NCBI RefSeq assembly: GCF_024653915.1
Contig: NZ_JANLGY010000017.1
Location: forward strand, 51,088 to 115,087
DNA: 64,000 nt
Source of the DNA: Sulfuricaulis sp.
GTDB taxonomy: Bacteria > Pseudomonadota > Gammaproteobacteria > Acidiferrobacterales > Sulfurifustaceae
Direction of reading: 5' to 3'
Shown: piece by piece, positions 3 through 48,612 of the stretch
How positions within the stretch are numbered: the stretch's first letter is position 1
How the letters are laid out: each line of letters starts with the position of its first letter
Program-made: the position numbers and the translations under genes
Notes under the pieces: model-generated
The model's database searches: none
The model's input: only the letters and a program-made list of their open reading frames with translations
What the model was told of the DNA's origin: nothing

Positions 3-227
3 CGTGTCACGCATCGTTCTCTGTTCGATGGCACGGTGCAGGGGTTGCAACGCACCGACAAGCCGGCGTTCTGTTTCCAGGGGCATCCGGAAGCCAGCCC
101 TGGCCCGCATGATGTTTCACCTTTGTTTGATCGCTTCATTGAATCGATGAATCAGAACCAAACCACAGGGAGCACGGGGAAGACTTCCGTTCAACCCGCA
201 TCTCCGCGTGCCCCTGTAGTCAAATAA
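3..227 (+). CDS. carA: Carbamoyl-phosphate synthase small subunit, 3' end (truncated by window edge)
   Basis: Reads [14 protein letters not shown]...[15 protein letters not shown], the conserved CarA C-terminal glutaminase motif; directly upstream of carB. Confidence 0.96.
161..222. repeat. Inverted repeat with 9-nt-periodic arms (CACRGGGRR units) inside the carA 3' end
   Basis: Left arm aaccacagggagcacgggga (161-180); imperfect right arm tccgcgtgcccctgtagt (203-220). Confidence 0.8.
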
Positions 228-229
228 TC

Positions 230-3200
230 ATGCCAAAAAGAACTGACATCAAAAGCATAATGATTATCGGGGCCGGTCCGATCATCATCGGACAGGGTTG
301 CGAATTCGACTATTCGGGCGCGCAGGCCTGCAAGGCGCTCAAGGAGGAGGGCTATCGCGTCATCCTCGTCAATTCCAATCCGGCCACCATCATGACCGAT
401 CCGGAGATGGCCGACGCGACCTACATCGAGCCTATCACCTGGCCCACGATTTCCAAGATTATCGAGAAGGAGCGTCCGGACGCGCTGCTCCCGACCATGG
501 GCGGCCAGACAGCGCTCAATACGGCGCTCGATCTGGCGCGCGAAGGCGTGCTGGAAAAATTCGGCGTGCAGATGATCGGCGCCACGCGCGATGCCATCGA
601 CAAGGCTGAAGACCGCGAGCGCTTCAAGAAGGCCATGGAAACCATCGGCCTCAAGTGCGCGCGCGGCGCCATTGCCCACAGTATGGAGGAAGCGTTGCAG
701 GTACAGGCGGCGATCGGCTTCCCCGTCATCATCCGCCCCTCCTTTACGCTCGGTGGCACGGGTGGCGGCATCGCCTACAACAAGGATGAATTCGTCATCA
801 TTTGCGAGCGTGGCCTGGATGCCTCGCCCACGCGCGAATTGCTGATCGAGGAATCCATCATCGGCTGGAAGGAATACGAGATGGAGGTGGTGCGCGATCG
901 CCTGGACAACTGCATCATTATCTGTTCGATTGAGAATATTGATCCCATGGGCGTGCATACCGGCGATTCCATCACGGTAGCGCCGGCGCAGACGCTGACC
1001 GACAAGGAATATCAGATTATGCGTGACGCCTCGATCGCCTGTCTGCGCGAGATCGGGGTGGATACCGGCGGCTCGAACGTGCAGTTTGCAATCAACCCGA
1101 AAGACGGGCGCATGATCATCGTGGAGATGAACCCGCGCGTCTCGCGCTCCTCGGCACTGGCCTCCAAGGCCACGGGTTTTCCGATTGCCAAGATCGCCGC
1201 CAAGCTGGCGGTCGGTTATACGCTGGATGAGCTGAAGAACGACATTACCGGCGGCAAAACGCCAGCCTCGTTCGAGCCCACGATTGATTATGTGGTGACA
1301 AAAATTCCACGTTTTACCTTCGAGAAATTCCCCAAGGCCGATCCGACGCTGACCACCCAGATGAAATCGGTGGGAGAGGCGATGGCGATTGGCCGCACCT
1401 TCCAGGAGTCGTTTCAAAAGGCGCTACGCTCGCTCGAAACCGGAAGCTACGGCCTCGAATCGCGACTCGATCCTGCCGCCGACAAGGACGAAACGCGCAA
1501 GCGCCTGGTGCTCGCGCTGCGTGTGCCGGGATCGGAGCGCATCTGGCATCTGGCCGATGCCATGCGCTTTGGTATGACTCGGGAAGAAATATTTGATTTA
1601 TGCCACATCGATCCCTGGTTTCTGGCACAGATCGCCGATCTGGTTGAAACCGAAAAAACCATTGCGAAGTTTGGCAGGAAGAAACCATCCGCCGATCTGC
1701 TGCGCGCCTGGAAGCGCAAGGGTTTTTCCGATCGTCGTTTGGCCCAGCTGATGAAAGTGCCCGAAAAGAAAGCGCGTAAATGGCGTCATTCAGCCAAAGT
1801 GCGCCCGGTCTACAAGCGCGTTGATTCCTGCGCCGCTGAATTTGCCTCGTCCACGGCCTACATGTATTCCACCTATGAAGAGGAGTGCGAGGCCGCGCCC
1901 GAGAAAAAGAAAAAAATTATCGTGCTGGGAGGCGGACCGAACCGTATCGGCCAGGGCATTGAGTTCGATTACTGCTGCGTGCACGCCTCCTTTGCGCTGC
2001 GCGAAGACGGCTACCAGACCATCATGATCAACTGTAATCCGGAGACCGTGTCCACGGACTATGACACCTCCGACCGGCTGTACTTCGAACCGCTGACGCT
2101 GGAAGATGTGCTCGAAATCATTCATCTGGAAAAGCCCGAAGGCGTGATCGTGCAGTACGGCGGACAAACCCCGCTCAAGCTCGCTCGCGGGCTCGAGGCG
2201 GCGGGCGCACCGATTATCGGCACCAGCCCGGAATCGATCGACGTGGCCGAAGACCGCGAACGATTCCAGAAGTTGCTTAAAAAACTGAAGCTGTTGCAGC
2301 CGCCCAACGCCACCGCGCGCACAGCACAGGAGGCGGTGAAGCTGGCCGACAAGATCGGATACCCGCTGGTCGTGCGCCCTTCCTACGTGCTCGGCGGGCG
2401 TGCCATGGAAATCGTGCACGCACGCGAGGACCTGGAAACTTACATGCGCGTGGCGGTGCGCGTATCCGAGGATTCGCCGGTGTTGCTGGATCGCTTCCTC
2501 AACGACGCGACCGAAGTGGATGTCGACGCCGTGTCCGACGGCAAGCAGGTCATTATTGGTGGCATCATGGAGCATATCGAGGAGGCCGGCGTGCACTCCG
2601 GCGATTCGGCCTGTTCATTGCCGCCGTTTTCCCTGTCGAAGAAAATACAGGATGAAATGCGCGAACAGACTGTCAAAATGGCCAAGGCACTGAAGGTGGT
2701 CGGGCTGATGAACGTGCAGTTTGCCATCCAGAATGGCAAGGTTTACGTGTTAGAGGTGAACCCGCGTGCCTCGCGTACGGTGCCTTTCGTTTCCAAAGCC
2801 ACAGGGCGGCCGTTGGCCAAGATTGCGGCGCGTTGCATGGCAGGACAGTCACTGAAGAAGCAGGGCGTGTCCGGGGAGATTGTGCCTTCCTATTACTCGG
2901 TGAAGGAAGCGGTGTTTCCGTTCATCAAGTTCCCCGGCGTGGATACGATACTGGGCCCGGAGATGAAATCGACCGGTGAGGTTATGGGTGTTGGCCGCAG
3001 TTTTGGTGAGGCCTTTACCAAATCCCAGATCGCCGCGGGCAGTCCGATCCCGAACAGTGGTCGTATTTTCATCAGTGTTCGCGATGCGGATCAGATAGGG
3101 GTGGTCGAGGTCGCACGCTACTTTAGCAAGCACGGATTTGAGGTTCTGGCCACCCGTGGAACCGCCGCGGTGCTGGAGGCCGGTGGTGTCACCACGCGCG

Positions 3201-3454
3201 CGGTCAGCAAGCTGTCCGAGGGGCGGCCGAATATCATCGACATGATCATGAATGACGAGATTGACATAATTCTCAATACGGTTTCTGATAAACAAAGTCT
3301 CGCCGATTCATACGCCATCCGGCGCGAGGCTTTGCAGCATAAAGTGACTAACTACACGACGCTCGCGGCAGCGAAGGCCGCCTGTGAGGCACACCGTGCA
3401 GCCGGGCACATGCGTGTCAGTCGGCTGCAAGACCTTCATAAGGAACTTGTATGA
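230..3454 (+). CDS. carB: Carbamoyl-phosphate synthase large subunit
   Basis: [30 protein letters not shown] start, duplicated ATP-grasp halves, C-terminal MGS domain, 1074 aa. Confidence 0.99.
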
Positions 3455-3927
3455 AAAAGACGCCCATGACCGTCACGGGGGCAGAGAAGCTGAAAGTCGA
3501 GCTTCACCGCCTGAAGACCGTGGAGCGTCCACGCATTATCCGTGCGATTGCTGAGGCGCGTTCACACGGCGACCTTTCGGAGAACGCCGAGTATCACGCG
3601 GCCAAGGAACAGCAGGGCTTTGTCGAAGGGCGCATTGCCGATCTCGACCTCAAGCTCGCGACGGCGCAGGTCATTGATCCCTTGACGGTCAACGCCAACG
3701 GTCGGGTGGTGTTCGGAGCCACGCTGAACCTCATCGATGAGCAGTCGAGTGAGGAGGTGACTTACCAGATTGTCGGAGATTATGAGGCGGATATTGCTTC
3801 GGGAATGATTTCCATCAGTTCACCGATCGCCCGCGCACTCATCGGCAAGGAATTGGGCGATGTGGTTGAGGTGCAGGTGCCGGGTGGTGTGCGCTCCTAC
3901 GAGATTCTTGCTATCCGTTATATCTGA
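3451..3927 (+). CDS. greA: Transcription elongation factor GreA
   Basis: [17 protein letters not shown] motif and [14 protein letters not shown]; ATGA overlap with carB. Confidence 0.98.
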
Positions 3928-3938
3928 TCTGTTTTCCT

Positions 3939-4232
3939 TTATTCTGGAAGTTTCAGGCGCGCTTTTTTCGCCCGGCGGTAGATGACCGCCATGCGGCCGA
4001 TTTCCTGCACGGCCTCGGCCCTGGTCGTTTCACAGATTTCCTCCAGCAGCGTGTGTCGCGCGTCACGATCGATCCCCGGCAGACGAATCTTGAGCAGTTC
4101 GTGGGCGTCGAGCGCTTGGGTTATTTCCTTGACTACCGCGGCCGTAACACCGGCATTTCCTACCTGTATCACGGGTTTAAAGTGATGGGCCAGCGCCTTC
4201 AGATATTTCCGCTGTTTAGCACTCAAAGCCAT
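3939..4232 (-). CDS. yhbY: YhbY/CRM-domain RNA-binding ribosome assembly protein
   Basis: LSAKQRKYLKALAHHFKPVIQVG...HELLKIR...QEIGRMAVIYR; conserved greA-yhbY-rlmE-ftsH context. Confidence 0.95.
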   Translation of the reverse strand: MALSAKQRKYLKALAHHFKPVIQVGNAGVTAAVVKEITQALDAHELLKIRLPGIDRDARHTLLEEICETTRAEAVQEIGRMAVIYRRAKKARLKLPE

Positions 4233-4303
4233 ATATATAATGAATCGCTACTCACTCACGTTCATGAATTTGCGCATCATACCGCAGCCCCGCCCAATCC
4301 CCC

Positions 4304-4927
4304 ATGCCCCGCACCAAGAGCAGCCAGCGTTGGCTGGCGCGTAACGCCAAGGACAAATACGTCAAGCGCGCGCGCGAGGAAGGCGCTCGTTCGCGTGCGA
4401 TTTACAAGCTTGAGGAAATTGACCGCCGCGATCACCTGCTGCGACCGGACATGACGGTGATTGATCTGGGCGCCGCACCGGGAGGCTGGTCCCAATACGT
4501 CAAAAGCCGCGTGGGTGAGTCTGGAAGGGTGCTGGCGCTGGATATCCTGCCGATGGAGCCGATTGTCGGCGTCGAGTTCATCGAGGGCGATTTCACGGAA
4601 CAGCCGGTGCTAGACTTGTTAATGCAGCGTATCCAGGGCAAACCGGTGGATCTTGTAATCTCGGACCTGGCCCCCAATATGACTGGTGTGGCCTCCGTGG
4701 ATCAGGCGCGTGGCATGAATCTGGCGGAACTTGTGCTCGAATTCTCCGACAAATCGCTGAAGCCGGGAGGTTCGCTGCTCATCAAAGCCTTTCAGGGCTC
4801 AGGGTTTAACGAGTTATACGCACAATTGCGCCGACGCTTCGAAAAGCTCGTGGCACGCAAACCATCGGCATCGCGCGCGGAGAGCAAGGAAATTTATCTT
4901 CTGGGCAGGGGGTTTAGAGGTGTCTGA
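4304..4927 (+). CDS. rlmE: 23S rRNA Um2552 2'-O-methyltransferase RlmE (FtsJ/RrmJ)
   Basis: RSRAIYKLEEID, DLGAAPGGWSQ, SDLAPN and KPSASRAESKEIY motifs. Confidence 0.98.
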   Translation: MPRTKSSQRWLARNAKDKYVKRAREEGARSRAIYKLEEIDRRDHLLRPDMTVIDLGAAPGGWSQYVKSRVGESGRVLALDILPMEPIVGVEFIEGDFTEQPVLDLLMQRIQGKPVDLVISDLAPNMTGVASVDQARGMNLAELVLEFSDKSLKPGGSLLIKAFQGSGFNELYAQLRRRFEKLVARKPSASRAESKEIYLLGRGFRGV

Positions 4928-5054
4928 GCAAAAACGTTGTTTGCCAGGAGACATCATAGGAAAATGCGGGTATGGGATGAAGGCGCCATTACGGGTGCTG
5001 CGGGCAAGGAAATAATGCGGCCCTACTTCGTTTGTTTTTATTAAGAGGTAATAC

Positions 5055-6962
5055 TTGAACAATCTCACCAAGAATCTCCTGTTGTGGCTCGTCATCGCCA
5101 TTGTGCTGATGTCGGTATTCAACAATTTCGGTAACCGCCAGCAGGCCACGCGCCCGATGGAATACTCGACCTTTGTCCAGAAAGTCCGCGGCGATGAAGT
5201 CGAACGGGTTACGATCCAGGGCCGTGAAATCACGGGCAAGCTCAAGGGCGGCGAGAGTTTCACCACCTACAATCCGGGCGACCAGCAGATCTTCAACGAC
5301 CTTATTGACCGCAAGGTTCAGTTTGAAGGCAAGCCGCAGGAAGAACAGTCACTGTTGTTGACCATTTTCATCAACTGGTTCCCGCTGTTGTTGTTGGTCG
5401 GTGTTTGGGTATTCTTCATGCGCCAGATGCAGGGCGGCATGGGTGGCCGCGGCGCCATGAGTTTCGGCAAGAGCAAGGCACGCATGTTGTCCGAGGAGCA
5501 GAACAAGATCACCTTTGACGACGTCGCCGGTGTCGAAGAGGCCAAGGAAGAAGTGGGCGAGCTGGTGGAATTCCTGCGCGATCCTTCCAAATTCCAGAAA
5601 CTCGGCGGCCGTATTCCCAAGGGCGTGCTTATGACCGGAGCGCCCGGGACCGGCAAGACGCTGCTCGCCAAGGCCATCGCCGGCGAGGCCAAAGTGCCGT
5701 TCTTTTCTATTTCCGGTTCTGACTTTGTCGAGATGTTCGTCGGCGTTGGTGCCTCGCGCGTGCGCGACATGTTCGAGCAGGCCAAGAAGCACGCACCCTG
5801 TATTATCTTCATTGACGAAATTGATGCCGTCGGACGCCAGCGCGGTGCCGGTCTGGGCGGCGGTCACGACGAGCGTGAACAGACGCTGAACCAGCTGCTG
5901 GTCGAGATGGACGGGTTCGAGGGTACCGAGGGCGTGATCGTGATCGCCGCGACCAACCGGCCGGACGTGCTCGACCCGGCCCTGCTGCGCCCCGGTCGTT
6001 TCGACCGCCAGGTGTACGTGCCGCTGCCCGACATCCGCGGGCGCGAGCAGATACTCAAGGTGCACATGCGCAAGGTGCCGGTATCGGATGACGTGGATGC
6101 CAATATTATTGCCCGCGGCACACCCGGTTTCTCCGGTGCCGATCTGGCCAACCTCGTGAACGAGGCGGCGCTGTTTGCCGCGCGCTTCAACAAGCGCCTC
6201 GTGGACATGCAGGATTTTGAGAAGGCCAAAGACAAAGTCATCATGGGCGCGGAACGCCGCTCCATTGTCATGCCGGAAAAGGAGCGCATGAACACCGCCT
6301 ATCACGAGTCCGGTCACACGGTGGTGGCGAAGTCGCTGCCGAACACCGATCCGGTGCACAAGGTGACTATCATCCCGCGCGGTCGCGCGCTCGGTGTCAC
6401 CATGCAGTTGCCGACGGAAGACCGCTACAGCCACGACCGCGAGTCGTTACTCTCGACCATATCGGTGCTAATGGGCGGACGCATTGCCGAAGAAGTGTTC
6501 ATGCACCAGATGACCACCGGCGCTTCCAACGATTTCGAGCGTGCCACTGATCTGGCGCGCAACATGGTCATGCGCTGGGGCATGTCCGACGTGCTGGGCA
6601 CGCGCGTCTATGGCGATAACCAGAGTGAAGTGTTTCTGGGACGCGACGTGATGACACACAAGAACATGAGCAATGCCGTGGCCGAGGCGGTGGACAAGGA
6701 GATTCGTCGTATTGTCGACGAACAGTATGCGCGGGCGCGCGCCATCATCGAGGAGAACCGCGAAAAAGTTGAAAAAATGGCGAAAGCACTGCTGGAATGG
6801 GAGACGCTTGAATCCGACCAGATCGAGGACATCATGAAGGGCAGGGAACCGCGCCCGCCGGCAGACACGGGTGGTAAGCCCAAGGGCGATGTTGGCAGCC
6901 CGAAGAAGCCGAGCGGCAAGGCCGTGAAGCCGCGCCTCGATTCACCCGCGGGCGAACACTGA
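5055..6962 (+). CDS. ftsH: ATP-dependent zinc metalloprotease FtsH
   Basis: Two N-terminal TM segments, Walker A GAPGTGKT, Walker [17 protein letters not shown] zinc motif; TTG start after an AGAGG RBS. Confidence 0.99.
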
Positions 6963-6968
6963 ACTGAA

Positions 6969-7811: not shown

Positions 7812-7814
7812 AAC

Positions 7815-9173: not shown

Positions 9174-9185
9174 CGGAAAGAAATG

Positions 9186-9453
9186 AATAGACAGGATTTA
9201 CAGGGCGAAGCGGAGTAGTCGCCGATGTACTTAACGTACATCGGCGCCGCTGAGCGCCCGCACATGGATGTGCGGGCCGGGGAAAAACGAAGCCCTGCCG
9301 CGACGCCAGGGAAGGCATACTTGCCGTCCCTGGCGAGACCATGAAAACTTCGACATACTCGGCCCCGCCATCCGTGGCGGGGCGCTCGCCGGGACGAAGA
9401 CATGTTAAGTGTCTTCGTCTGTTTCCGGCTCGCCCTGCTTAATCCTGTCCATT
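9186..9453. repeat. ACAGGAT-type inverted repeat enclosing five internal hairpins (composite palindromic element)
   Basis: Outer arms aatagacaggatttacagggcg (9186-9207) and cgccctgcttaatcctgtccatt (9431-9453); internal stems at 9220-9246, 9256-9277, 9304-9335, 9362-9383 and 9393-9419. Confidence 0.9.
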
Positions 9454-19702: not shown

Positions 19703-19796
19703 GAACCGCAGATAAACGCAGATGAACGCAGATCGAAGCAAAGAACCAATAGAGTTATTTTTTAATCTGCGTTTATCCGCGTTCATCTGCGGTTTC
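19703..19796. repeat. Inverted repeat with 10-nt-periodic arms (CGCAGATRAA x3)
   Basis: gaaccgcagataaacgcagatgaacgcagat (19703-19733) and atctgcgtttatccgcgttcatctgcggtttc (19765-19796), between nuoI and nuoJ. Confidence 0.92.
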
Positions 19797-28124: not shown

Positions 28125-28148
28125 GTATTATAAAATAAAATGAATTCG

Positions 28149-28237
28149 AACCACGGGGGACACGGGGGAAGACATGAAAGTTAAGAATGACATTCCCGTT
28201 TTTCTGATACTTTTTACTCCCCGTGTTCCCCGTGGTT
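28149..28237. repeat. Inverted repeat with 9-nt-periodic arms (CACGGGGGA x2)
   Basis: aaccacgggggacacggggga (28149-28169) and tccccgtgttccccgtggtt (28218-28237). Confidence 0.9.
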
Positions 28238-28283
28238 TAAGCTTTAGGTTTTGATTTTGTTAGGTTTCTTAATTACCTGACCG

Positions 28284-33849: not shown

Positions 33850-33942
33850 AATAGACAGGATTTACAAGATTAACAGGATTACGGCTGGGCACGTTTTCTT
33901 TTAATCCTGTAAATCCTGTAAATCCTGTTAATCCTGTCCATT
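33850..33942. repeat. Inverted repeat with 9-nt-periodic arms (ACAGGATTW; 3 + 4 units)
   Basis: aatagacaggatttacaagattaacaggatta (33850-33881) and aatcctgtaaatcctgtaaatcctgttaatcctgtccatt (33903-33942). Confidence 0.93.
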
Positions 33943-33951: not shown

Positions 33952-34323
33952 ATGCAAAAAGTTTCCAATCGGCCGCGACGTGTCGCGGAACTCATCCGGC
34001 GTGAACTTGCCATGCTCATCCCGCGCGAGCTCGACGATCCCAAGGCGCACCAGATCACGTTAACCGGCGTGGAAATGTCGCGCGACATGTCTTCCGCGCG
34101 AATCTATTTTTCTTTGTTGAGCGGTGCCGTGGAGGCGAAAAAGTTGACCAAGTCGCTCAACCGCGCCGCCGGATTTCTGCGGCATGTCCTCATGGGAAGG
34201 GTATCGTTGCGAAGCGTGCCGGTGCTGCGGTTTTATTTCGATGAATCGGTGGAACGTGGCGCGCGCATCGACAGCCTGATTGAACAGGCCATCACCGAAG
34301 ACCAGCAGACCAAAAATAAATAG
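33952..34323 (+). CDS. rbfA: Ribosome-binding factor A
   Basis: RPRRVAELIRREL, TGVEMSRDMSSARIY and VPVLRFYFDESVERG motifs. Confidence 0.97.
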   Translation: MQKVSNRPRRVAELIRRELAMLIPRELDDPKAHQITLTGVEMSRDMSSARIYFSLLSGAVEAKKLTKSLNRAAGFLRHVLMGRVSLRSVPVLRFYFDESVERGARIDSLIEQAITEDQQTKNK

Positions 34324-34415
34324 ACAGGATCAACAGGATTCAGCAGGATTAACAGGATTTTTGAAATTTTGAATCTTTAATCCTGTAAATCTTGAGTAAT
34401 CCTGTTAATCCTGTG
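34319..34415. repeat. Inverted repeat with 9-nt-periodic arms (ACAGGAT; 4 + 4 units) overlapping the rbfA stop
   Basis: aatagacaggatcaacaggattcagcaggattaacaggattt (34319-34360) and aatcctgtaaatcttgagtaatcctgttaatcctgtg (34379-34415). Confidence 0.92.
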
Positions 34416-39322: not shown

Positions 39323-39383
39323 TGCTTGTGTGGTCGGAGTGGCTTTACAGGAAGCGCATCGTCCTTTAGCCTCGGTGTCAGAC

Positions 39384-40437: not shown

Positions 40438-40466
40438 TTCATTTCTCGCGGTATCGAGGGTAAAAT
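40438..40466 (+). promoter_or_regulatory. Putative sigma70 promoter of the rpsP operon
   Basis: TTCATT-17 bp-TAAAAT followed by a CGCGCCC discriminator. Confidence 0.55.
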
Positions 40467-40537
40467 CGCGCCCTTTCTCGAACCTTGCAAGGCCCTGTCC
40501 GGCCGGGCGGGGCTTCTTAACGAAGTGAGGTAGATCA

Positions 40538-40786: not shown

Positions 40787-40792
40787 GTCATC

Positions 40793-41308: not shown

Positions 41309-41311
41309 TCC

Positions 41312-42055
41312 ATGCGTATTGACGTTATAAGTTTGTTTCCGCCGATGTTCGAGGCCGTGAGCGCTCACGGCATTACCGGACGGGCGGTCAAGAACGGATT
41401 GCTGACGCTGCGGGTGTGGAACCCGCGCGATTACACGGAAGACAAGCACCGCAGCGTGGATGACCGGCCTTATGGCGGCGGCCCGGGTATGGTGATGATG
41501 AATGAGCCGTTGACGCGCGCGATCCGCGCGGCACGCGGCGAACAGACGCAGACGGCGAAGGTGATTTACCTTTCGCCGCAGGGCCGGCGGCTGGATCATG
41601 CCGCGGTGCTGGAGATGTCAAAGCGCGAGGGCATGATTCTTCTCGCCGGGCGTTACGAAGGTATTGACGAGCGCCTGATCGAGACAGAAGTGGACGAGGA
41701 GTGGTCAATGGGTGACTACGTCCTCTCCGGCGGTGAACTGGCGGCGATGGTATTGATCGACGCCGTGACGCGCCAGCTTCCCGGGGCCTTGGGCGACGAA
41801 GATTCAGCGCAGCAGGATTCCTTCGTGGAAGGCCTGCTGGATTGCGAACATTACACGCGGCCGGAAGAGTATGCCGGGCGTAAAGTGCCGGAAGTGCTGT
41901 TGTCGGGCGATCACGAAAAGATCCGCCGCTGGCGTCTCAAGCGGTCGCTGGGACGGACCTGGTTGCGGCGGCCGGATTTGCTGGAAAAGTTGACGTTGAA
42001 CAGTGAGCAGAAACAGCTGCTGGAAGAATTTAAAGAGGAATATTTGAATAAATAG
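41312..42055 (+). CDS. trmD: tRNA (guanine37-N1)-methyltransferase
   Basis: [26 protein letters not shown] and [11 protein letters not shown] motifs. Confidence 0.99.
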
Positions 42056-42132
42056 AACCACAGATAAACACGGATAAAAAACTTCCGGGTTTTTATTGAA
42101 TAATCTGTGTTAATCCGTGTCCATCCGTGGTT
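42056..42132. repeat. Inverted repeat with 10-nt-periodic arms (CACRGATAAA; 2 + 3 units) abutting the trmD stop
   Basis: aaccacagataaacacggat (42056-42075) and atctgtgttaatccgtgtccatccgtggtt (42103-42132). Confidence 0.9.
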
Positions 42133-42165
42133 AAAAGTATATTTTGAGAATCTAGAGGTGAAAAA

Positions 42166-42513
42166 ATGAGCAAGATCATGCAGGAACTGGAAGCGCGGAT
42201 GATGGCGGACAATAAGGTCCCCGAGTTTTCTCCGGGTGACAGCGTTATCGTCCATGTGAAGGTGAAGGAAGGTGAGCGCGAACGTCTCCAGGCCTTTGAG
42301 GGCATGGTCATCGCGCGCCGGAATAGCGGTTTCAACTCCTCCTTTACAGTACGCAAGACTTCCTACGGCGAAGGGGTGGAGCGTGTGTTCCCGCTGTACA
42401 GCTCGGCCATCGCCAAGATCGAGGTCAAGCGCAAAGGCGACGTACGCCGCGCCAAGCTTTATTATCTGCGTGATCTCGCCGGCAAGGCCGCTCGTATTCG
42501 CGAGAAGGTCTGA
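42166..42513 (+). CDS. rplS: 50S ribosomal protein L19
   Basis: [28 protein letters not shown] and RRAKLYYLR motifs. Confidence 0.99.
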
Positions 42514-42521
42514 GTTTTGTT

Positions 42522-42627
42522 GTCATGCCGGCGGAAGCCGGCATTCAGGTAGCACCAGAAAAGCCGCCCATCCGGGCGGCTTTTTATTTTCCCTCTCCCC
42601 TTGCGGGAGGGGGTTAGGGAGAGGGGT
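42522..42627. repeat. Composite: 27-nt GTCAT...CAG palindrome, intrinsic terminator (42559-42585) and 36-nt CCTCTCCCC palindrome
   Basis: GTCATGCCGGCGGAAGCCGGCATTCAG; AAAAGCCGCCC-ATCC-GGGCGGC-TTTTT; cctctccccttgcgggagggggttagggagaggggt. Confidence 0.88.
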
Positions 42628-42674
42628 GTAGTAATTCTGCCAAATCGCCTTCGGCGATGATTAACCGCTAATTG

Positions 42675-42886
42675 CGGGTTGCTCCGCCCCGCACCCTGGG
42701 TGACTTTTGTTTCGGCAAAAGTCACCAAAACCACTCCCCCCGGAGCGCGCGACTTCCTTCTCCGCTCCTCGCCCCACCGGGCGCTCGACCAACTCGCCGG
42801 GCGCGAAATACGCGCCTCGGGCTCAAACAGGGTCTCGCTTAAAAACTCCCGGCGGGGCTGCGGTGCTCGACGCGCGCTACGGGGTC
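42675..42886. repeat. About 210-nt multi-stem non-coding element upstream of ogt
   Basis: Perfect 11-bp stem GGTGACTTTTG/CAAAAGTCACC (42699-42726); long-range pairs ccccggagcgcgcg/cgcgcgctacgggg and ccccaccggg/cccggcgggg; inner GGCGCG-AAATA-CGCGCC. Confidence 0.75.
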
Positions 42887-42935
42887 TGAAGAAACCGTGG
42901 TGGCACTGATCGCTGTGCCCGTGGATAATGAATCC

Positions 42936-43481
42936 ATGCGGAACGGGAGAACATCCAAAGCCAGGGACTACGACGCGGTTGTGGCCACGCCCATCGGCCG
43001 GGTCGGGATCGTGGTGCAGGACGACGCGCTGGTGGACGTGAACTTTCTCGGCATGTCCGCCGCCTTGCAGGCCCCGCGCACGAACATGGCGCGCCGGGCT
43101 TGTCGCCAGATCCGATCCTATTTCATCAATCCCCGTCTTTCCTTTCGCCTTCCGTTGAAGCTGTCGGGGACGGCGTTCCAGCAGCGCGTGTGGCGCGCGT
43201 TGCAGCGCATTCCCGTGGGCCAGACGCTCAGTTACGGCGTGCTGGCGAAGAAACTCGATACCTCGGCACGTGCCGTGGGCAATGCCTGCCGTGCCAACCC
43301 TGTCCCCATCATCGTTCCGTGTCATCGCGTCGTCGCAGCGGGTTACGGCGATGTACAGGGAAGTACAAGTGTCGCGGGAAGCAGGAAGCTGAGAGCGACC
43401 GTCGGCGGTTTCATGGGCAAGCGCTCGGGTTCCCCGTTGAATCTGAAGCATTGGCTGCTGGAGCATGAGCGCAGGGAATAA
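42936..43481 (+). CDS. ogt: Methylated-DNA-protein-cysteine methyltransferase (Ogt family) with an extra loop
   Basis: FQQRVWRALQRIPVGQTLSYG, ARAVGNAC and NPVPIIVPCHRVV (active-site Cys) motifs, KHWLLEHE end; start uncertain. Confidence 0.93.
   Translation: MRNGRTSKARDYDAVVATPIGRVGIVVQDDALVDVNFLGMSAALQAPRTNMARRACRQIRSYFINPRLSFRLPLKLSGTAFQQRVWRALQRIPVGQTLSYGVLAKKLDTSARAVGNACRANPVPIIVPCHRVVAAGYGDVQGSTSVAGSRKLRATVGGFMGKRSGSPLNLKHWLLEHERRE
43344..43400. repeat. Palindromic element apparently inserted in frame in ogt
   Basis: TGTAC-AGGGAA-GTACA (43352-67) and GTCGC...GCGAC (43371-99); encodes YGDVQGSTSVAGSRKLRAT with atypical codons. Confidence 0.72.
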
Positions 43482-44361
43482 GGACCTCATCGAACGTTTT
43501 TGCGACGCTCTGTGGTTGCAGGATGGGCTGAGCGCGAACACGCTCGAAGCCTACCGGCGTGATCTGGAAGGACTGGATCGCTGGTTTACCAAACGCGGCA
43601 CGGCGCTGGCATCGGCCTCGCGCGCCGATCTGCAGGAGTATCTTTCCCAATGCGTCAGCAAAAAAAGTGCACGTACGGCTGCGCGATTGCTGTCCAGCCT
43701 GCGCCGGTTTTACGGTCATCTGGTGCGTGAAGAAAAAATCAAAACCGACCCTACGGCGCTGATCGACTCGCCCAAGCTCGGCCGGCCCTTGCCGAAATCG
43801 CTGTCTGAAGAGCAGGTGGAAAAACTGCTGGAATCGCCGGATGTCGCGAAGCCTCTCGGCCTGCGCGACCGCGCCATGCTGGAAACGCTCTATGCCACCG
43901 GCCTGCGCGTGTCGGAGCTGGTGGGCCTGACGCTGTCGCAGGTGAGCCTGACGCAGGGCGTGGTGCGCGTCATCGGCAAGGGCGACAAGGAACGGCTGGT
44001 GCCGCTGGGCGAAGAAGCCATCTCGTGGATCAGCCGCTATCTCGCCGAAGGTCGTCCCAAGCTGGTGCGCAGCCGCTCGACCGATGCGCTGTTCACCACC
44101 ACCCGCGGCGGCCCCATGACCCGCCAGGCCTACTGGCATAACCTCAAAAACCACACCCGCAAGGCCGGCATTGAACCCAAAAGACTGTCACCCCACACCC
44201 TGCGCCACGCTTTTGCCACGCATCTGCTCAACCACGGCGCCGATTTACGCGTGGTACAGATGCTCCTCGGCCACGCCGACCTTTCCACCACGCAGATTTA
44301 CACCCACGTCGCACAGGCGAGATTGAAGACATTGCACGAGCAGCATCATCCGAGGGGGTAG
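43465..44361 (+). CDS. xerD: Tyrosine recombinase XerD
   Basis: RDRAMLETLYATGLRVSEL, GKGDKERLVP, SPHTLRHAFATHLLNHGADLRVVQMLLGH and TQIYTHV; all catalytic R-K-H-R-H-Y residues present. Confidence 0.97.
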   Translation: MSAGNKDLIERFCDALWLQDGLSANTLEAYRRDLEGLDRWFTKRGTALASASRADLQEYLSQCVSKKSARTAARLLSSLRRFYGHLVREEKIKTDPTALIDSPKLGRPLPKSLSEEQVEKLLESPDVAKPLGLRDRAMLETLYATGLRVSELVGLTLSQVSLTQGVVRVIGKGDKERLVPLGEEAISWISRYLAEGRPKLVRSRSTDALFTTTRGGPMTRQAYWHNLKNHTRKAGIEPKRLSPHTLRHAFATHLLNHGADLRVVQMLLGHADLSTTQIYTHVAQARLKTLHEQHHPRG

Positions 44362-44497
44362 GGTATCGCGCGCTTTGCGCGCGATACCATTCAAGGCCTG
44401 GATTCCGGTTTTCACCGGAATGACGAAAGGGAAAAAGCCGCCTTTCGGCGGCTTTTTATTTACCCCTCTCCTTAATCCTCTCCCGCAAGGGGAGAGG
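44362..44497. repeat. Composite: 12-bp hairpin, inverted 27-nt palindrome, bidirectional terminator (44432-44457) and inverted 36-nt palindrome
   Basis: GGTATCGCGCGC-TTT-GCGCGCGATACC (44362-88); CTGGATTCCGGTTTTCACCGGAATGAC (44398-424); A5-GCCGCC-TTTC-GGCGGC-T5; acccctctccttaatcctctcccgcaaggggagagg (44462-97). Confidence 0.88.
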
Positions 44498-44504
44498 AGA
44501 GATA

Positions 44505-45251
44505 TCAATGATAAGCCGACCGATTAATCTGATCGTGATCCACATCCGGATCAAACACCTCCACTCCCGGTACTCGTTTGTAGCCGAGGACGAGGGCGAT
44601 CTTGTGGATGAGGGTTTTCCAGTTGAGTGAGTTGACGCGGCGACGCAGGACGTCGTTGACTTCTAGCGTCAGTTTTTCATGTTCCTTTTCCAGCGCCGGC
44701 AGCTTGTGAAAATAGCGCAGCGCGAGCCAGGCGTAGGCCACCGGCAGCAGTTTGACGATCAGGGACGGGTTTGCCATCGCAAGCCACATGACGATGAAGC
44801 TGACGCCGGCGAAAATGAAGAACAAACCATAGCGCACGGCCTTGGCGTACTCGTCGCGATTGCGTTCCATGGCCTCGCGCAGTCGCCGCTCGGCATTGCG
44901 TGAAGCGATGGAGTGCGCGTAATGGATGTCGCGGAACATGCTCAGCGTTTTGAGCATGCGCTCGCTATGACGCCGGTTCTCGATGCCGAATGAATCCAGC
45001 GCCGATTGGAGGCTTTCGCGGAACTGGCGGTAATTCGGCGTGGCAGCCGGTTCCTTGTAGCGGTCGGCGGTGTGGTTGATCAGGTAACGCAGTTCCAGCA
45101 CGTTCGCGATCTTCATCGGAAAGCGCAAGCTGATGAACTTGGTGTAGAACGTGTGAAAGCCGTCAGGCGTCAGGTTCAGCCCAGAGAAATCCTGCGCCAG
45201 TTCCCGCTGCTGAGCCCTTTCTTTCCTTCGTTTGCTAGTTGTTTTTTTCAT
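44505..45251 (-). CDS. Hypothetical protein with two C-terminal-half TM helices
   Basis: Long ORF with GC3-rich codons; hydrophobic pair GLFFIFAGVSFIVMWLAM and LIVKLLPVAYAWLAL; start ATG 45251 inferred. Confidence 0.75.
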   Translation of the reverse strand: MKKTTSKRRKERAQQRELAQDFSGLNLTPDGFHTFYTKFISLRFPMKIANVLELRYLINHTADRYKEPAATPNYRQFRESLQSALDSFGIENRRHSERMLKTLSMFRDIHYAHSIASRNAERRLREAMERNRDEYAKAVRYGLFFIFAGVSFIVMWLAMANPSLIVKLLPVAYAWLALRYFHKLPALEKEHEKLTLEVNDVLRRRVNSLNWKTLIHKIALVLGYKRVPGVEVFDPDVDHDQINRSAYH

Positions 45252-45421
45252 GAATGGAAAAGCTCGCTCAATATCCTGCCCCGTTTTCATGATATTGAAC
45301 CGTCCTGTAGTTCTAATGGAAACTAGGATAACGGATAAAGCAGGGGTTTTCTACCGCCGGGCTGGCGCCCCGGGAACGGTCGTAGCTTAGAGACTGTGTC
45401 AGAACAAATACAAAAATCATG

Positions 45422-45499
45422 AACCACGGGGTCCACGGGGAGAAATGAATAGGATCATGCCTTCATCCCAGCCTGGTTTTCCCCGTGCTCCCCGTGGTT
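45422..45499. repeat. Inverted repeat with 9-nt-periodic arms (CACGGGG x2) just after the rep stop
   Basis: aaccacggggtccacgggga (45422-41) and tccccgtgctccccgtggtt (45480-99). Confidence 0.92.
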
Positions 45500-45506
45500 G
45501 AAATTC

Positions 45507-47519
45507 TTAACTATTACCCAGCATGTTCCGCAGGTTGGCGACATGGATGTCGGCGCGGCCGAGCATAGCCTGAGCATCAGGCTCCCGGTCCGGCTCCTCC
45601 CACTTGAGGTCATCCGATGGTAATTCCCTGAGGAAACGGCTGGATTCGCAGATGATGACCTCGCCGCCGCGCTTGCGCCGGTCGACAAAGGAGAATGTCA
45701 GCGTTTGGCGCGCGCGCGTCATGGCCACGTAGGCGAGACGGCGTTCTTCTTCCACGCCGGCCTCCGACTTGTTCTGATGTTGCGGCATCAGGCCTTCTTC
45801 CATGCCGACGATGAAAACATGCGGAAATTCCAGGCCCTTGGCGGCGTGCACGGTCATGAGCGAAACCAGATCGCCGGGATTTTCCTGATCGCCTTTATCC
45901 AGGATGCCCGAGAGCGTCAGCCGCGCGACCAGGTCGCTGAGCGTCAAGTCCTCTTCCTGGCGCGCGAGACGCTGGATCCAGCCCACCAGTTCCAGCACGT
46001 TTTCCATGCGGCGTTGTGCGATCTTTTGATCGTTGCAGATGTCCTTGAGCCAATCTTCATAATGCAGGTCGGTCAGCATGTCGCACACGAGTTTGCCCGG
46101 CTCATCATCTTCCGACTTGGTGATCATTTCCATCAGCCAGTGCGTGAAACCGCGCAACGTTGTTTCCTGACGTGCGGTAAGTTTCGTGTCGATGCCGGGA
46201 TCCATGGACGCTTGCAACAGGCTCGTGTTCAGTTCGGCGGCATGCGCGGAGAGCAGCTCCAGTGTGGCCGGAACGATTTCGCGCCGCGGCGTGTTGATCA
46301 CGCGCAGGAAGGCATTGTCATCGCCCGGGTTGCATAGCAGGCGCAGATAGGCCATGACGTCCTTGATCTCGGTCTTGTCGAAGAATGACGTCCCGCCGCT
46401 CTGAAAATGCGGAATGCGCCGCTCGCGCAACACGCGCTCGAGCACGCGCGACTGATTGTTCTCCCGGAACAGGATGGCGTAATCCCTGAAATCCGTGTTG
46501 TTCTTGAATTTGTGATTCAGCAATTCGGAAATAACGCGCTCGGCCTCGTGCTCCTCGCCGCGTGCCCGCAGCACGCGCAGCGACTCGCCGTAATCGCGGT
46601 CGCACCACAGCGATTTCTCGAAGAGATGGGAGTTATTCGCAATCAGGGCATTGGCGGCCTTGAGAATCCGCCCGCTCGAACGGTAGTTCTGCTCGAGCTT
46701 GATTACCTTAAGTAGCGGGAAATCCTGTTGCAGCTGTTTCAGGTTCTCCGGATGTGCGCCGCGCCAGGCATAGATGGACTGGTCGTCATCGCCCACCACG
46801 GTGAGCGCACCGCGATCGCCGGCCAGTAGTTTGACGAGCTGGTACTGGCATAAATTTGTGTCCTGGAATTCGTCCACCAGCAGGTAACGCACGCGCTGGC
46901 GCCATTCCGCCAGTAGTTCCGGGTGCTCCTGGAGGAGCCGCACCGGCTTGAGGATGAGGTCGTCGAGATCCATGGCGTTGTACGCCTGGAGGTGGCGTTC
47001 GTATTCGCCGTAGATCCGCGCTGCCACGTCCTGGATGGTTTCGCCCCCGGCCGTGAGTGGCGCTTCCGCTGGCGACACCAGGTTGTTTTTCCATAACGAG
47101 ATCTGGTGCCGTACGGCCTCGGCAGGGTTAATCTTGCCGGTGTATTGTCCGCGCAGTAGCTTGCTGAGCAGTGCCTGGCTGTCTTCGCCGTCGTACAGCG
47201 AGAAGCCCGGCCGGTAACCGATATCGCTCAGGTGCTCGCGCAGGATTTTCAGGCCGAAGGTATGGAAGGTCGAGATGAGCAGTTCCTTGCTGTATTCGCC
47301 GTTCATCAGATCGGACACGCGCGATTTCATTTCGCGTGCGGCCCTGTTGGTGAAGGTGATGGCGACGATATGGCGCGGGGCAATGCCGTAGTCGCGGATA
47401 AGCCAGGAGATTTTACGGGTAATGACGGAGGTCTTGCCGCTGCCCGCGCCCGCCAGCACCAGCAGGGGGCCATTGACGTACTGCACGGCCGCTTTCTGTG
47501 GCGGGTTCAGTTTAGGCAA
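45507..47519 (-). CDS. rep: ATP-dependent DNA helicase Rep (UvrD/Rep family)
   Basis: LVLAGAGSGKTSVI, LLVDEFQDTN, VVGDDDQSIYAWRGA, LEQNYRS, TVHAAKGLEF and EEERRLAYVAMTRA; 670 aa without a UvrD C-terminal tail. Confidence 0.92.
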   Translation of the reverse strand: MPKLNPPQKAAVQYVNGPLLVLAGAGSGKTSVITRKISWLIRDYGIAPRHIVAITFTNRAAREMKSRVSDLMNGEYSKELLISTFHTFGLKILREHLSDIGYRPGFSLYDGEDSQALLSKLLRGQYTGKINPAEAVRHQISLWKNNLVSPAEAPLTAGGETIQDVAARIYGEYERHLQAYNAMDLDDLILKPVRLLQEHPELLAEWRQRVRYLLVDEFQDTNLCQYQLVKLLAGDRGALTVVGDDDQSIYAWRGAHPENLKQLQQDFPLLKVIKLEQNYRSSGRILKAANALIANNSHLFEKSLWCDRDYGESLRVLRARGEEHEAERVISELLNHKFKNNTDFRDYAILFRENNQSRVLERVLRERRIPHFQSGGTSFFDKTEIKDVMAYLRLLCNPGDDNAFLRVINTPRREIVPATLELLSAHAAELNTSLLQASMDPGIDTKLTARQETTLRGFTHWLMEMITKSEDDEPGKLVCDMLTDLHYEDWLKDICNDQKIAQRRMENVLELVGWIQRLARQEEDLTLSDLVARLTLSGILDKGDQENPGDLVSLMTVHAAKGLEFPHVFIVGMEEGLMPQHQNKSEAGVEEERRLAYVAMTRARQTLTFSFVDRRKRGGEVIICESSRFLRELPSDDLKWEEPDREPDAQAMLGRADIHVANLRNMLGNS

Positions 47520-47615
47520 TTCCGCTGGATCGTGATAGGAAGTGTCATGACTGGACGGGCATTCTAACCTTAATTCACAGTCGTTTGAAAGAAAAGTTTC
47601 CGGAAAAATTTATCT

Positions 47616-48521
47616 TCATTCCAGTTGCTCAAGAAAGTTTTTCATGCGTTCCCGCGTCGCGGCGGGTTTGTCCAGCAGCTGGCCAATGAGATCGAACAGG
47701 GCGTGGTGGCGGGAGCCGAACAACCGGTGGGCACGCACCATCTTCAGGGTGTGCACGCCTTCGCCTTCAAGCGCGCCGGTTTGGCCACGAACCAGCCGAC
47801 GACCCAGCTCGTGATGGTGGGAGCCCTTGCTGGTGGCCGTGGTAATCAGGTCGCCAAGGCCGGCGAGTCCGTGCGCCGCGCCCGCCGAACCGCCCAGACC
47901 GGTGACGATGCGCTCCAGCTCGTGCATGGCCGCCGTGGCAAGATAGCCCCGCATGTTGTCACCCAGGCCCAGCTCGTCTGCCACGCCGAACAGGATGGCG
48001 TAAACGTTCTTGAGCACGGCCGACCAGGAAATGCCCTCGGTGTCGGCGCTGTGTTCGAGGTAAAGCGAGGTACCGGCAAAGACATCGCGCAGGCGAGCAA
48101 AGATTTCAGCCCGTGCGGCGCCGGCTTGGGCGAAGGCCGGACGTCCGGCGCGGATTTCCTCCGAAATCATCGGTCCGTAAAGCACGGCAATTGGGGCTTC
48201 CGGACCCAGCGCTTGGGTAAGTGCCCGCGCCGCCGTGCGTCCCTCGTCGTCGAGCCCCTTGGCGATACTGACGCAGAACGTGTCCGGGCGCAGACGGGGC
48301 CGCAGCCGGGTGGCCAGCTCGAAATGGGGATTGGCCGGCAGACAGAAGATAATGATGTCCTGTTGTCCGGCGATGGATTCCAGTTCGACGGCAAGGCTGC
48401 CTGGTTGGGAGCGACGCTGCCAGACCGTGAGCGTGTGGCGCTGTTGCAGGAGGTATTCCATAGCCCGGCCCATTTCGCCGTGGCCGAGGATGAGGATTTG
48501 ATATTTATTTTTCACCGCCAA
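47616..48521 (-). CDS. NAD(P)H-dependent glycerol-3-phosphate dehydrogenase family protein (divergent GpsA-like)
   Basis: LGHGEMG dinucleotide motif, SIAKG, LKNVYAI and GLAGLGDLITT; start TTG 48521 or GTG 48515. Confidence 0.85.
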   Translation of the reverse strand: MAVKNKYQILILGHGEMGRAMEYLLQQRHTLTVWQRRSQPGSLAVELESIAGQQDIIIFCLPANPHFELATRLRPRLRPDTFCVSIAKGLDDEGRTAARALTQALGPEAPIAVLYGPMISEEIRAGRPAFAQAGAARAEIFARLRDVFAGTSLYLEHSADTEGISWSAVLKNVYAILFGVADELGLGDNMRGYLATAAMHELERIVTGLGGSAGAAHGLAGLGDLITTATSKGSHHHELGRRLVRGQTGALEGEGVHTLKMVRAHRLFGSRHHALFDLIGQLLDKPAATRERMKNFLEQLE

Positions 48522-48612
48522 GTCGCCAAGACGCCAAGAATTCAGAAAGTCTAACGAATCCCAGGGTTAAAATCCTGAATTTCATTGGCGTCCTTGGCGT
48601 CTTGGCGGTTAA
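48514..48612. repeat. Inverted repeat with 8-nt-periodic arms (CGCCAAGN x3) filling a divergent intergenic region
   Basis: accgccaagtcgccaagacgccaag (48514-38) and ttggcgtccttggcgtcttggcggttaa (48585-612). Confidence 0.92.

What the first reader, a model, noticed from the sequence alone, without database searches (positions are those of the whole stretch)
161..48612. Nine inverted repeats with periodic arms: same architecture, different repeat units
Seen: nine elements, at 161-222, 9186-9453, 19703-19796, 28149-28237, 33850-33942, 34319-34415, 42056-42132, 45422-45499 and 48514-48612. Each has two arms of 2-4 tandem units in inverted orientation around an unrelated spacer, mostly about 18-50 nt and often AT-rich. 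Four unit types occur: CGCCAAGN (8 nt), CACRGGG-NN (9), ACAGGATTN (9) and CRCRGATNAA (10). Six begin (A)ACCRC and end GYRGT(T), despite having different units. Seven follow a stop codon closely or overlap it, mostly at junctions inside highly expressed operons (carA-carB, glmM-tpiA, nuoI-J, infB-rbfA, rbfA-truB, trmD-rplS). Established: REP-like hairpins near stop codons can stabilise upstream mRNA. Inference: shared architecture and termini with exchangeable units suggest a non-autonomous mobile or REP-like system, recognised by structure and moved by an enzyme encoded elsewhere. I do not recognise a named repeat family with this design.
Basis: partly seen in the sequence, partly recalled or inferred. 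Interest (0 to 1): 0.82.

Follow-up and report, generated by a model that had tools for sequence, protein, structure and literature searches.

The report
Gene-less hairpin copies of nuclease cassettes
The nine hairpins are real: they are gene-less copies of small DNA cassettes whose complete versions carry an uncharacterised nuclease gene between the same repeat-built arms, which gives a long-unexplained kind of bacterial repeat a candidate enzyme to test.

Summary
All nine elements exist as described. They belong to about 150 paired copies, plus about 35 partial ones, in this 2.73-Mb Sulfuricaulis genome, with at least nine unit types. They lie almost only between co-directional or convergent genes, usually 8-40 nt after a stop codon.

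The key result is that complete versions carry a gene. In this genome one CGCCAAG-armed element (contig C10:75233-75705) encloses a 148-aa GxxExxY / PD-(D/E)XK nuclease-family gene. All 11 further GxxExxY loci examined in congeners, and one metagenome locus, also sit between periodic arms. Seven unit types are involved, and protein divergence follows unit type.

A second layer exists. Some copies sit inside shells with IS5-type terminal inverted repeats and 4-bp target duplications. Matching IS5-family insertion sequences occur in two congeners. One clean filled-versus-empty site was found.

Orthologous junctions carry different unit types, or nothing, in sister species. Unit cores are 99% conserved against 72% for the rest of the element.

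The architecture is already in print, unexplained, for Geobacter (2009) and Xanthomonas (2015). I found no paper linking it to GxxExxY. How the elements move is inferred, not shown.

The parts
161..222 (.). Degenerate CACGGGG-type hairpin at the carA 3' end, 7 nt before carB. It carries one compensated pair (CACAGGG / CCCTGT).
9186..9453 (.). 268-nt composite element bounded by AATRGACAGGATT ... AATCCTGTCMATT, between glmM and tpiA. It is one of three copies in the genome; the others are at C17:86465 and C29:29953.
19703..19796 (.). CGCAGAT-type hairpin with 3 units per arm, between nuoI and nuoJ. The same junction holds other unit types, or nothing, in congeners.
28132..28277 (+). CACGGGG-type element. 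The arms are at 28149-28237; the right outer end GTTAGGTTTCTTA is intact and the left outer end is missing. Six congeners have a 22-27-nt spacer at this site.
33850..33942 (.). ACAGGATT-type hairpin with 3 and 4 units, 4 nt after the infB stop.
34319..34415 (.). ACAGGATT-type hairpin whose A-rich left end encodes the last RbfA codons and supplies the stop codon. truB keeps its own ribosome-binding site downstream.
42056..42132 (.). CACRGAT-type hairpin starting at the trmD stop codon. In G014 and G003 trmD and rplS overlap (ATGA) and the site is empty.
45382..45509 (.). CACGGGG-type element with arms at 45422-45499, 7 nt from the stop of the minus-strand gene at 45507-47519.
48514..48612 (.). 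CGCCAAG-type hairpin with 3 units per arm. Its arm type is the same as in the gene-carrying cassette at G000:C10:75233-75705, which lies outside the window.

Best explanation
The nine hairpins are gene-less miniature members of a family of hairpin cassettes. A complete cassette has two inverted arms, each made of 2-4 tandem 7-10-nt units (13 or more in one relative). Between the arms lies a small gene of the GxxExxY family (TIGR04256 / Pfam PDDEXK_3, PD-(D/E)XK nuclease superfamily). Each cassette lineage has its own unit, and the protein diverges in step with the unit.

What is shown:
- Gene-carrying and gene-less copies share the same arms.
- Loops of gene-less CGCCAAG copies still contain pieces of the 5' end of the gene, so they arose by loss of the gene.
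- The elements come, go and are swapped at gene junctions among congeners.
- Some copies lie inside IS5-type miniature-transposon shells with terminal inverted repeats and short target duplications, and one such copy is a clean insertion.

What is inferred:
- The nuclease recognises the arm units, or the hairpin or cruciform they form, and makes the break that lets a copy be pasted or copied into AT-rich sites next to stop codons. This would resemble the way a RAYT transposase keeps its REPIN population.
- Arm units expand and contract by slippage.
- Hairpins that have lost their nuclease persist as orphans, or hitch-hike in IS5 shells.
- The conserved cores are kept either by recognition or by selection on the stem.
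For: 1. G000:C10:75233-75705 has CGCCAAG arms 433 nt apart around a 148-aa ORF. The ORF scores 139.6 bits against TIGR04256 and 138 bits against PF13366. Its ATG lies inside the arm and overlaps the stop codon of the upstream gene.
2. The genus search found 15 GxxExxY matches in 9 of 21 genomes. All 11 loci fetched from relatives have periodic arms 360-430 nt apart. The unit types are CGCAAAG, CGCAGAT, ACAGGATT, CGCAGAG and CGCCAGG.
3. A metagenome locus (L111:12694-13129) has CACGGGG arms around a GxxExxY gene scoring 129 bits.
4. Protein identity follows unit similarity. Against the CGCCAAG protein it is 65% for CGCCAGG, 50-54% for CGCAAAG, 46% for CGCAGAG, 42% for CGCAGAT and 40-41% for ACAGGATT. 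G..E..Y, D and ExK are invariant.
5. The loops of gene-less CGCCAAG copies contain AAAGGCGGT and CAAAACTTGA, both found at the start of the ORF.
6. Evidence of mobility: CACGGGG arms number 54 here against 0-1 in 20 congeners. ACAGGATT pattern matches range from 0 to 251 per genome. A clean 144-nt insertion at C17:60836-60980 is absent from four congeners whose flanks are contiguous. Filled and empty junctions are seen.
7. In 34 CACGGGG copies, the 28 core columns are 0.990 identical to the consensus against 0.724 for 113 other columns.
8. The link was found independently in other phyla by earlier notes of this scan (e1-1069187, e1-1090715).
Against: - No nuclease or mobilisation activity has been shown.
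- This genome has one GxxExxY gene (CGCCAAG type) but at least nine unit types. G014 has 111 ACAGGATT pattern matches and no GxxExxY gene. Most families are therefore orphans here, and their 99% core conservation needs another cause.
- The only clean insertion, and the only clear target duplications, belong to the IS5-type shell, not to the cassette ends.
- The three copies of the 268-nt composite show no target duplication.
- Co-divergence of protein and arms could be plain co-inheritance rather than recognition.
- Several 'filled' alleles replace the whole native spacer instead of being simple insertions.
Confidence: 0.6

Rival explanations
1. [quoted passage not shown] The periodic arms are only microsatellite-like cargo grown by slippage. 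The GxxExxY gene is a passenger that happens to insert into hairpin loops.
For: - Full copies have the terminal inverted repeat GGAAyCTCTGA plus 4-bp direct repeats: CTAG, TTAG, TTAA (three copies), TTTT, TAAA, TAAT, TTTA and TTCA.
- IS5-family insertion sequences of 1177-1181 bp with the same ends occur in G011 and G012. Their transposases score 339-363 bits against NF033581.
- There is a clean 144-nt insertion with these ends and a TAA/TAG duplication.
- At least one matching end was found at 27 of 149 elements, against about 1% in the control.
Against: - Only 7 of 149 elements have both shell ends.
- The same shell also carries unrelated cargo.
- The insertion sequences themselves have no periodic arms.
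- G000 and G014 have no PF01609 transposase yet carry many hairpins.
- All 13 GxxExxY loci examined lie between periodic arms, and the two cassettes read in full show no IS5 end. That is too regular for a chance passenger.
Confidence: 0.17
2. The elements are host-serving sequences. They could be arrays of binding sites for DNA-binding proteins, as proposed for Geobacter ('global regulator binding sites'). Alternatively they could be mRNA hairpins that protect upstream messages. In either case they would be kept by selection rather than by mobility.
For: - Cores are 99% conserved while loops have drifted to 72%.
- Placement is biased: 76% lie between co-directional genes and 4% between divergent genes, against 19% divergent in the background.
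- The hairpins are very stable, with a median of -43 kcal/mol against -16.6 for shuffles.
- The nucleotides between units are free to vary, as expected if only the cores are read.
- The published interpretation for Geobacter is of this kind (PMC2700814).
Against: - There is no strand asymmetry of folding relative to transcription: 60 against 49, p = 0.56.
- CACGGGG copies show no orientation bias, 9 against 10.
- They are not terminator-like, and true terminators lie elsewhere in the window.
- Orthologous junctions are empty in many congeners and carry different units in sister species.
- Nine unit types would need nine separate factors.
- The elements share their arms with a nuclease cassette.
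Confidence: 0.15
3. The elements are REPIN-like repeats mobilised by a RAYT (Y1/HUH) transposase.
For: - The genome encodes Y1 transposase-like genes at C9:291-620, C8:11-256 and C24:129408-129764.
- The overall picture, hairpin doublets near the 3' ends of genes, resembles REPINs.
Against: - Those genes are flanked by other hairpins (GGGGTCAGTACCC and AAGCCCCCGGC), not by periodic arms.
- The arms are direct tandem units, not palindromic REPs, and lack a GTAG or CGTC head.
Confidence: 0.03

Closest known systems
REPIN / RAYT systems (REP doublets kept by a single-copy Y1 transposase gene flanked by its own repeats)
   Same: - Many gene-less hairpin-forming repeats near the 3' ends of genes.
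- One or a few gene-carrying copies in which the enzyme gene is bracketed by the same repeat.
- Family-specific repeat sequences.
- Orphan populations where the gene has been lost.
   Different: - The enzyme belongs to the PD-(D/E)XK (GxxExxY / PDDEXK_3) superfamily, not to the HUH/Y1 family.
- The arms are tandem 7-10-nt units rather than imperfect palindromes with a GTAG head.
- The gene lies inside the hairpin loop.
- No activity has been shown.
Paired tandem octa-, nona- and heptanucleotide sites of Geobacter metallireducens ('putative global regulator binding sites', Aklujkar et al. 2009, PMC2700814)
   Same: - Pairs of sites on opposite strands.
- Each site is 3-5 tandem 7-9-nt units.
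- The distance between paired sites varies.
- There are several classes per genome and tens of copies.
   Different: They were interpreted as regulator binding sites. No nuclease gene or mobility was reported, and the units are different.
GGGAATC heptamer repeats of Xanthomonas (Rehm et al. 2015, PMC4692102)
   Same: - 70-75 inverted pairs of tandem units per genome.
- They lie within about 28 nt of the upstream gene, some overlapping the stop codon.
- Most lie between co-oriented ORFs and they are depleted between divergent ORFs.
- Unit number is variable.
   Different: There is one unit type per genome. The repeats were discussed as G-quadruplex-forming simple repeats, and the authors found no link to mobile elements.
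Bacterial MITEs of IS5-family insertion sequences; Chunjie of Geobacter uraniireducens (inserted in an operon without disturbing it); Correia elements
   Same: - Small, gene-less elements with terminal inverted repeats and short target duplications.
- Many truncated copies that look like REPs.
- Tolerated inside operons.
   Different: Only a minority of copies here carry the IS5-type ends. The conserved part is the inner periodic hairpin, which is shared with a nuclease cassette.

Membership tests
Gene-less derivative of a GxxExxY (TIGR04256 / PF13366) hairpin cassette | Two inverted arms, each built of tandem 7-10-nt units | tested here: met
Gene-less derivative of a GxxExxY (TIGR04256 / PF13366) hairpin cassette | Complete relatives with the same arm units carry a GxxExxY gene in the loop | tested here: met
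   G000:C10; 11 of 11 congener loci; metagenome L111 with CACGGGG arms. Seven unit types are covered. No gene-carrying copy was found for the GCAAGTR and ACGGTTAC types.
Gene-less derivative of a GxxExxY (TIGR04256 / PF13366) hairpin cassette | The gene-less loop retains remnants of the gene | tested here: inconclusive
   This was seen by eye only, for CGCCAAG copies C5:52518 and C5:203102 against the start of the ORF. It was not seen in the window copy at 48514.
Gene-less derivative of a GxxExxY (TIGR04256 / PF13366) hairpin cassette | The nuclease acts on the arms and moves or maintains the copies | not testable with these tools
   This needs biochemistry and genetics. The single-sequence structure model was poor (pLDDT 38.9), and no solved relative was found by sequence.
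MITE of an IS5-family insertion sequence | Terminal inverted repeats that match an autonomous insertion sequence | tested here: met
   Met for a subset only. GGAAyCTCTGA ends match the IS5 copies in L061 and L062 of congeners. Both ends are present in 7 of 149 elements and at least one end in 27 of 149.
MITE of an IS5-family insertion sequence | Target-site duplication and a clean empty site | tested here: met
   4-bp direct repeats at nine full-shell copies. One clean insertion with a TAA/TAG duplication. No duplication at the 268-nt composites.
MITE of an IS5-family insertion sequence | A cognate transposase in the same genome | tested here: not met
   PF01609 gave 0 matches in G000 and in G014. 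No repeats of 250 bp or more resembling an insertion sequence were found.
REP / REPIN-RAYT | A RAYT gene flanked by the same repeat, and REP units that are palindromes with a GTAG or CGTC head | tested here: not met
Intrinsic terminator | A short GC-rich stem with a loop of 3-8 nt followed directly by a T-run | tested here: not met
   None of the elements is among the terminator-like sites. True terminators lie at 42558, 37916 and 29338.
Any Rfam RNA family | A match at the family's gathering score | tested here: not met
   Only two tRNAs were found in the window.

The most novel reading that the evidence does not exclude
GxxExxY proteins are the enzymes of an undescribed class of selfish hairpin cassettes. 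Each nuclease lineage reads its own 7-10-nt arm unit, so arms and enzyme co-evolve as a programmable pair. The enzyme copies its cassette, or its gene-less miniatures, into the stop-codon side of gene junctions. The unexplained paired tandem repeats of Geobacter, Xanthomonas and other phyla would then be relics of this one system.
Probability: 0.3. Interest if true: 0.85.

Novelty: new variant of a known kind. Interest (0 to 1): 0.68.

Why it matters
Paired arrays of short tandem units next to stop codons have been reported for more than fifteen years. They have been read as 'regulator sites' or as quadruplex-forming repeats, and no mechanism has been given.

Here, within a single genus, every GxxExxY gene examined sits between such arms, and the protein diverges together with the arm unit. 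That has three consequences:
- A very large protein family of unknown function (PDDEXK_3 is listed as 'unknown' in the 2012 superfamily survey) becomes testable.
- It offers an explanation for a common annotation puzzle.
- It shows how these elements reshape operon junctions. They supply stop codons, replace C-terminal codons (RbfA) and separate genes that overlap in relatives (trmD-rplS, rbfA-truB).

Tried and rejected
- **Y1/RAYT partner.** The genes exist but are flanked by other hairpins.
- **RNA-level selection.** Folding shows no sense/antisense asymmetry. An orientation bias appears only in the CGCAGAG family, 4 against 17.
- **Known RNA family.** Rfam gave nothing on the elements.
- **Terminators.** The elements are not terminator-like.
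- **IS5 shell as the whole explanation.** I first took this as the full answer. I then found that most copies lack the shell and that the insertion sequences lack periodic arms.
- **Copy with an ORF in the spacer.** The metagenome locus L142 holds an IS256-type transposase fragment, which is a nested insertion sequence rather than the partner.
- **Strain-level empty sites.** The look-up of encoding contigs found no exact-protein relatives.
- **Generic inverted-repeat scan.** A genome-wide scan followed by a periodicity filter was too noisy.
- **Outer ends with nhmmer.** The search lacked sensitivity.
- **Structure.** The single-sequence AlphaFold model of the nuclease was too poor for a fold search.
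- **Integron attC.** I considered a resemblance (TAAC...GTTA ends) and dropped it. The elements are dispersed, they do not form arrays, and I did not search for an integrase.
Full report
**1.
The nine elements are at the stated coordinates and appear as inverted repeats. As single-stranded DNA, eight of them fold far better than shuffles, with z-scores of -3.6 to -8.6 and 0 of 200 shuffles folding as well.

The window is C31:51088-115087 of a 2.73-Mb assembly in 31 contigs with 58% G+C. Named relatives are Sulfuricaulis.

Flanking genes are carB, glmM, tpiA, nuoI, nuoJ, infB, truB, trmD and rplS. Arms begin -5 to 24 nt from the upstream stop at six junctions.

**2. The elements are a genome-wide system.**
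- Unit-based scans find 149 paired elements (12.8 kb, 0.47% of the genome) plus arms whose partner is degenerate.
- Counts by commonest unit are: ACAGGATT 35, CGCAGAG 29, CACGGGG 29 (34-35 by profile search), CGCAAAG 23, CGCCAAG 15, CRCRGAT 12, CGCGAAG 2, GCAAGTR 2 and ACGGTTAC 1.
- Within a family the loops and flanks are homologous and have an orientation, so these are copies of masters, not independent inventions.
- Of the 149 elements, 109 lie between co-directional genes, 28 between convergent genes, 6 between divergent genes and 4 inside predicted genes. Among background gaps of 60 nt or more, 19% are divergent.
- Arms start a median of 17 nt after the upstream stop and end a median of 27 nt before the next start.
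- The elements match no Rfam family and are not terminator-like. Genuine terminators lie at operon ends.

**3. Anatomy of the arms.**
- Unit numbers often differ between the two arms. Only 9 of 35 ACAGGATT elements are 3/3.
- A relative has a run of at least 13 units (G085:C12).
- The 1-3 nt between units are mostly not complementary between arms: CACGGGG 0 of 29, ACAGGATT 4 of 61, CGCNRAG 16 of 107. Each stem is therefore a row of 7-9-bp blocks separated by mismatches.
- In 34 CACGGGG copies found by profile search, the 28 core columns are 0.990 identical to the consensus. The other 113 columns are 0.724 identical.
- Folding stability shows no bias towards the transcribed strand: 60 against 49, p = 0.56.

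**4. Turnover among relatives.**
- CACGGGG arms number 54 here against 0-1 in 20 congeners.
- ACAGGATT pattern matches range from 0 to 251 per genome in the genus. This genome has 91 and G010, its sister in the infB tree, has 7. The type also occurs in four other genera of the family. The control gave 0.
- The infB|rbfA junction is short (41-46 nt) in seven congeners. In the others it is filled by five different unit types, and sister species differ.
- The nuoI|nuoJ junction holds CGCAGAT (here), CGCAAAG, CGCCAGG, a CGCCAAG remnant, TTTCGRG, a minimal GAACCGC-GGCGGTTC hairpin, or nothing.
- In two relatives trmD and rplS overlap (ATGA). Here and in G010 and G020 they are separated by an element.
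- rbfA and truB abut in 13 congeners. Where the junction is filled by an ACAGGATT element, its A-rich end encodes the last RbfA codons and the stop.
- Alleles at these junctions are shared across clades of the infB tree. This points to recombination between species as well as to new insertions.
- Several filled alleles replace the whole native spacer rather than adding to it. I cannot explain this fully.

**5. First layer found: IS5-type shells.**
- Some copies of every major family carry outer ends resembling GGAAyCTCTGA or GGGAACCTCTAA, with 4-bp direct repeats. Examples are C21:36407-36537 (CTAG), C24:174541-174681 (TTAG) and C22:28793-29127 (TTAA).
- The C22 copy carries a nested element that has its own TTCA duplication.
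- The same shell also encloses non-periodic cargo.
- IS5-family insertion sequences of 1177-1181 bp with these ends occur in congeners G011 and G012. Their transposases score 339-363 bits against NF033581.
- G000 and G014 have no such transposase and no insertion-sequence-like repeats.
- One clean case: C17:60836-60980 is a 144-nt insertion with ends GAGTCTCTAACAAAATGAG...CATTTTGTTACGGATTC and a TAA/TAG duplication. It lies in sequence that is contiguous in four congeners.
- Only 7 of 149 elements have both shell ends, and the insertion sequences carry no periodic arms. The shell is therefore not the core of the matter.

**6. Second layer, the decisive one: nuclease cassettes.**
Earlier notes of this scan said that similar hairpins in other phyla are gene-less copies of cassettes carrying a GxxExxY gene. 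I tested this here.
- An apparently solitary CGCCAAG arm on contig C10 has its partner 433 nt away. Between the two lies a 148-aa ORF scoring 139.6 bits against TIGR04256 (GxxExxY) and 138 bits against PF13366 (PDDEXK_3). Its ATG lies inside the arm and overlaps the stop of the upstream gene.
- The genus has 15 matches in 9 of 21 genomes. All 11 loci fetched from relatives have periodic arms 360-430 nt apart around the gene. The units are CGCAAAG (four loci), ACAGGATT (four loci, two of them broken genes), CGCAGAT, CGCAGAG and CGCCAGG.
- A metagenome contig has the same arrangement with CACGGGG arms.
- Protein identity to the G000 copy falls in the order of unit similarity, from 65% down to 40%. 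G..E..Y, D and ExK are invariant.
- The two cassettes read in full show no IS5 end.
- The loops of two gene-less CGCCAAG copies keep motifs from the start of the ORF.

**7. Reading.**
- What the elements are (gene-less relatives of GxxExxY cassettes, some riding in IS5-type shells) is well supported.
- How they spread is inferred. The nuclease may recognise the units or the extruded hairpin and make the break that leads to copying, as RAYT does for REPINs.
- Points against this reading: this genome has one nuclease gene but nine unit types, G014 has none, and the only clean insertion has IS5-type ends.
- The 99% core conservation in orphan families is compatible with selection on the stem or on a binding site. 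This keeps the host-function rival alive.

**8. Relation to print.**
- The architecture was reported in Geobacter metallireducens as four classes of paired tandem-repeat 'global regulator binding sites' (PMC2700814).
- It was also reported in Xanthomonas as GGGAATC repeats, with 70-75 inverted pairs per genome close to stop codons (PMC4692102).
- PDDEXK_3 is listed with unknown function (PMC3424549).
- Three papers in the library hold the word GxxExxY. The two listed (one read at the matching passage, the other judged from its title) do not concern these repeats.
- A MITE review notes that truncated MITEs come to look like REPs.

**9. Limits.**
- No strain-level relatives were on record.
- My gene calls are home-made.
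- The structure model was poor, and no solved relative was found by sequence.

Noticed in passing
G000 contigs C6:33134-33265, C15:3944-4147, C17:31596-31725, C22:10108-10310, C22:28850-29052: These are MITEs with the terminal inverted repeat GGGAACCTCTAA and 4-bp target duplications (TAAA, TAAT, TTTA, TTCA). Their cargo is a pair of GTAGG-headed REP-like palindromes. One of them is nested in the loop of a CGCAAAG hairpin.
   Followed up: partly
G000 C9:255-975 and C8:1-740: Two RAYT-like Y1 transposase genes lie at contig starts. They are flanked by GGGGTCAGTACCC hairpins, a separate repeat family. A classical IS200-like tnpA lies at C24:129408-129764.
   Followed up: partly
window 34290-34323 (rbfA 3' end): The last five RbfA residues (QTKNK) and the stop codon are encoded by the A-rich end of the inserted element. 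Congeners without the element end in KTHKE or KTHKD.
   Followed up: yes
window 161-227 (carA 3' end): My predicted carA frame runs through the degenerate CACGGGG hairpin and stops at 227. The element may therefore add residues to CarA. This was not checked against relatives.
   Followed up: no
L142:20-1235 (metagenome contig SDBT01080257.1): An IS256-type (PF00872) transposase fragment lies between two CACGGGG arms 1.2 kb apart. It looks like an insertion sequence nested in a hairpin loop.
   Followed up: partly
nuoI|nuoJ and infB|rbfA junctions of 13-20 congeners (alignment A5): Near-identical intergenic alleles are shared by species from different clades of the infB tree. Examples are CGCCAGG in G006 and G008, and CGCAAAG in G009, G018 and G014. 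This suggests recombination between species at these junctions.
   Followed up: partly
G005 and G004, nuoI|nuoJ junction (alignment A5): A minimal hairpin GAACCGC-GGCGGTTC lies where relatives have full periodic elements. It looks like an internal-deletion footprint that keeps only the termini.
   Followed up: no
G085:C12:5-169: A run of at least 13 tandem ACAGGATTC units is followed by an inverted arm. This shows microsatellite-like expansion of one arm.
   Followed up: no
G000 C12:13269-13420: A CGCAAAG-type hairpin has a further roughly 55-nt insert inside one arm (GTCGCTCCCGCGCATCCC...). This is another nested small element.
   Followed up: no
window 42010-42190 (trmD|rplS) compared with G014 and G003: About 8-11 nt of target sequence (AATATYTYRA) appear on both sides of the CACRGAT element. 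This would be a longer duplication than the 4 bp seen at IS5-type shells.
   Followed up: partly
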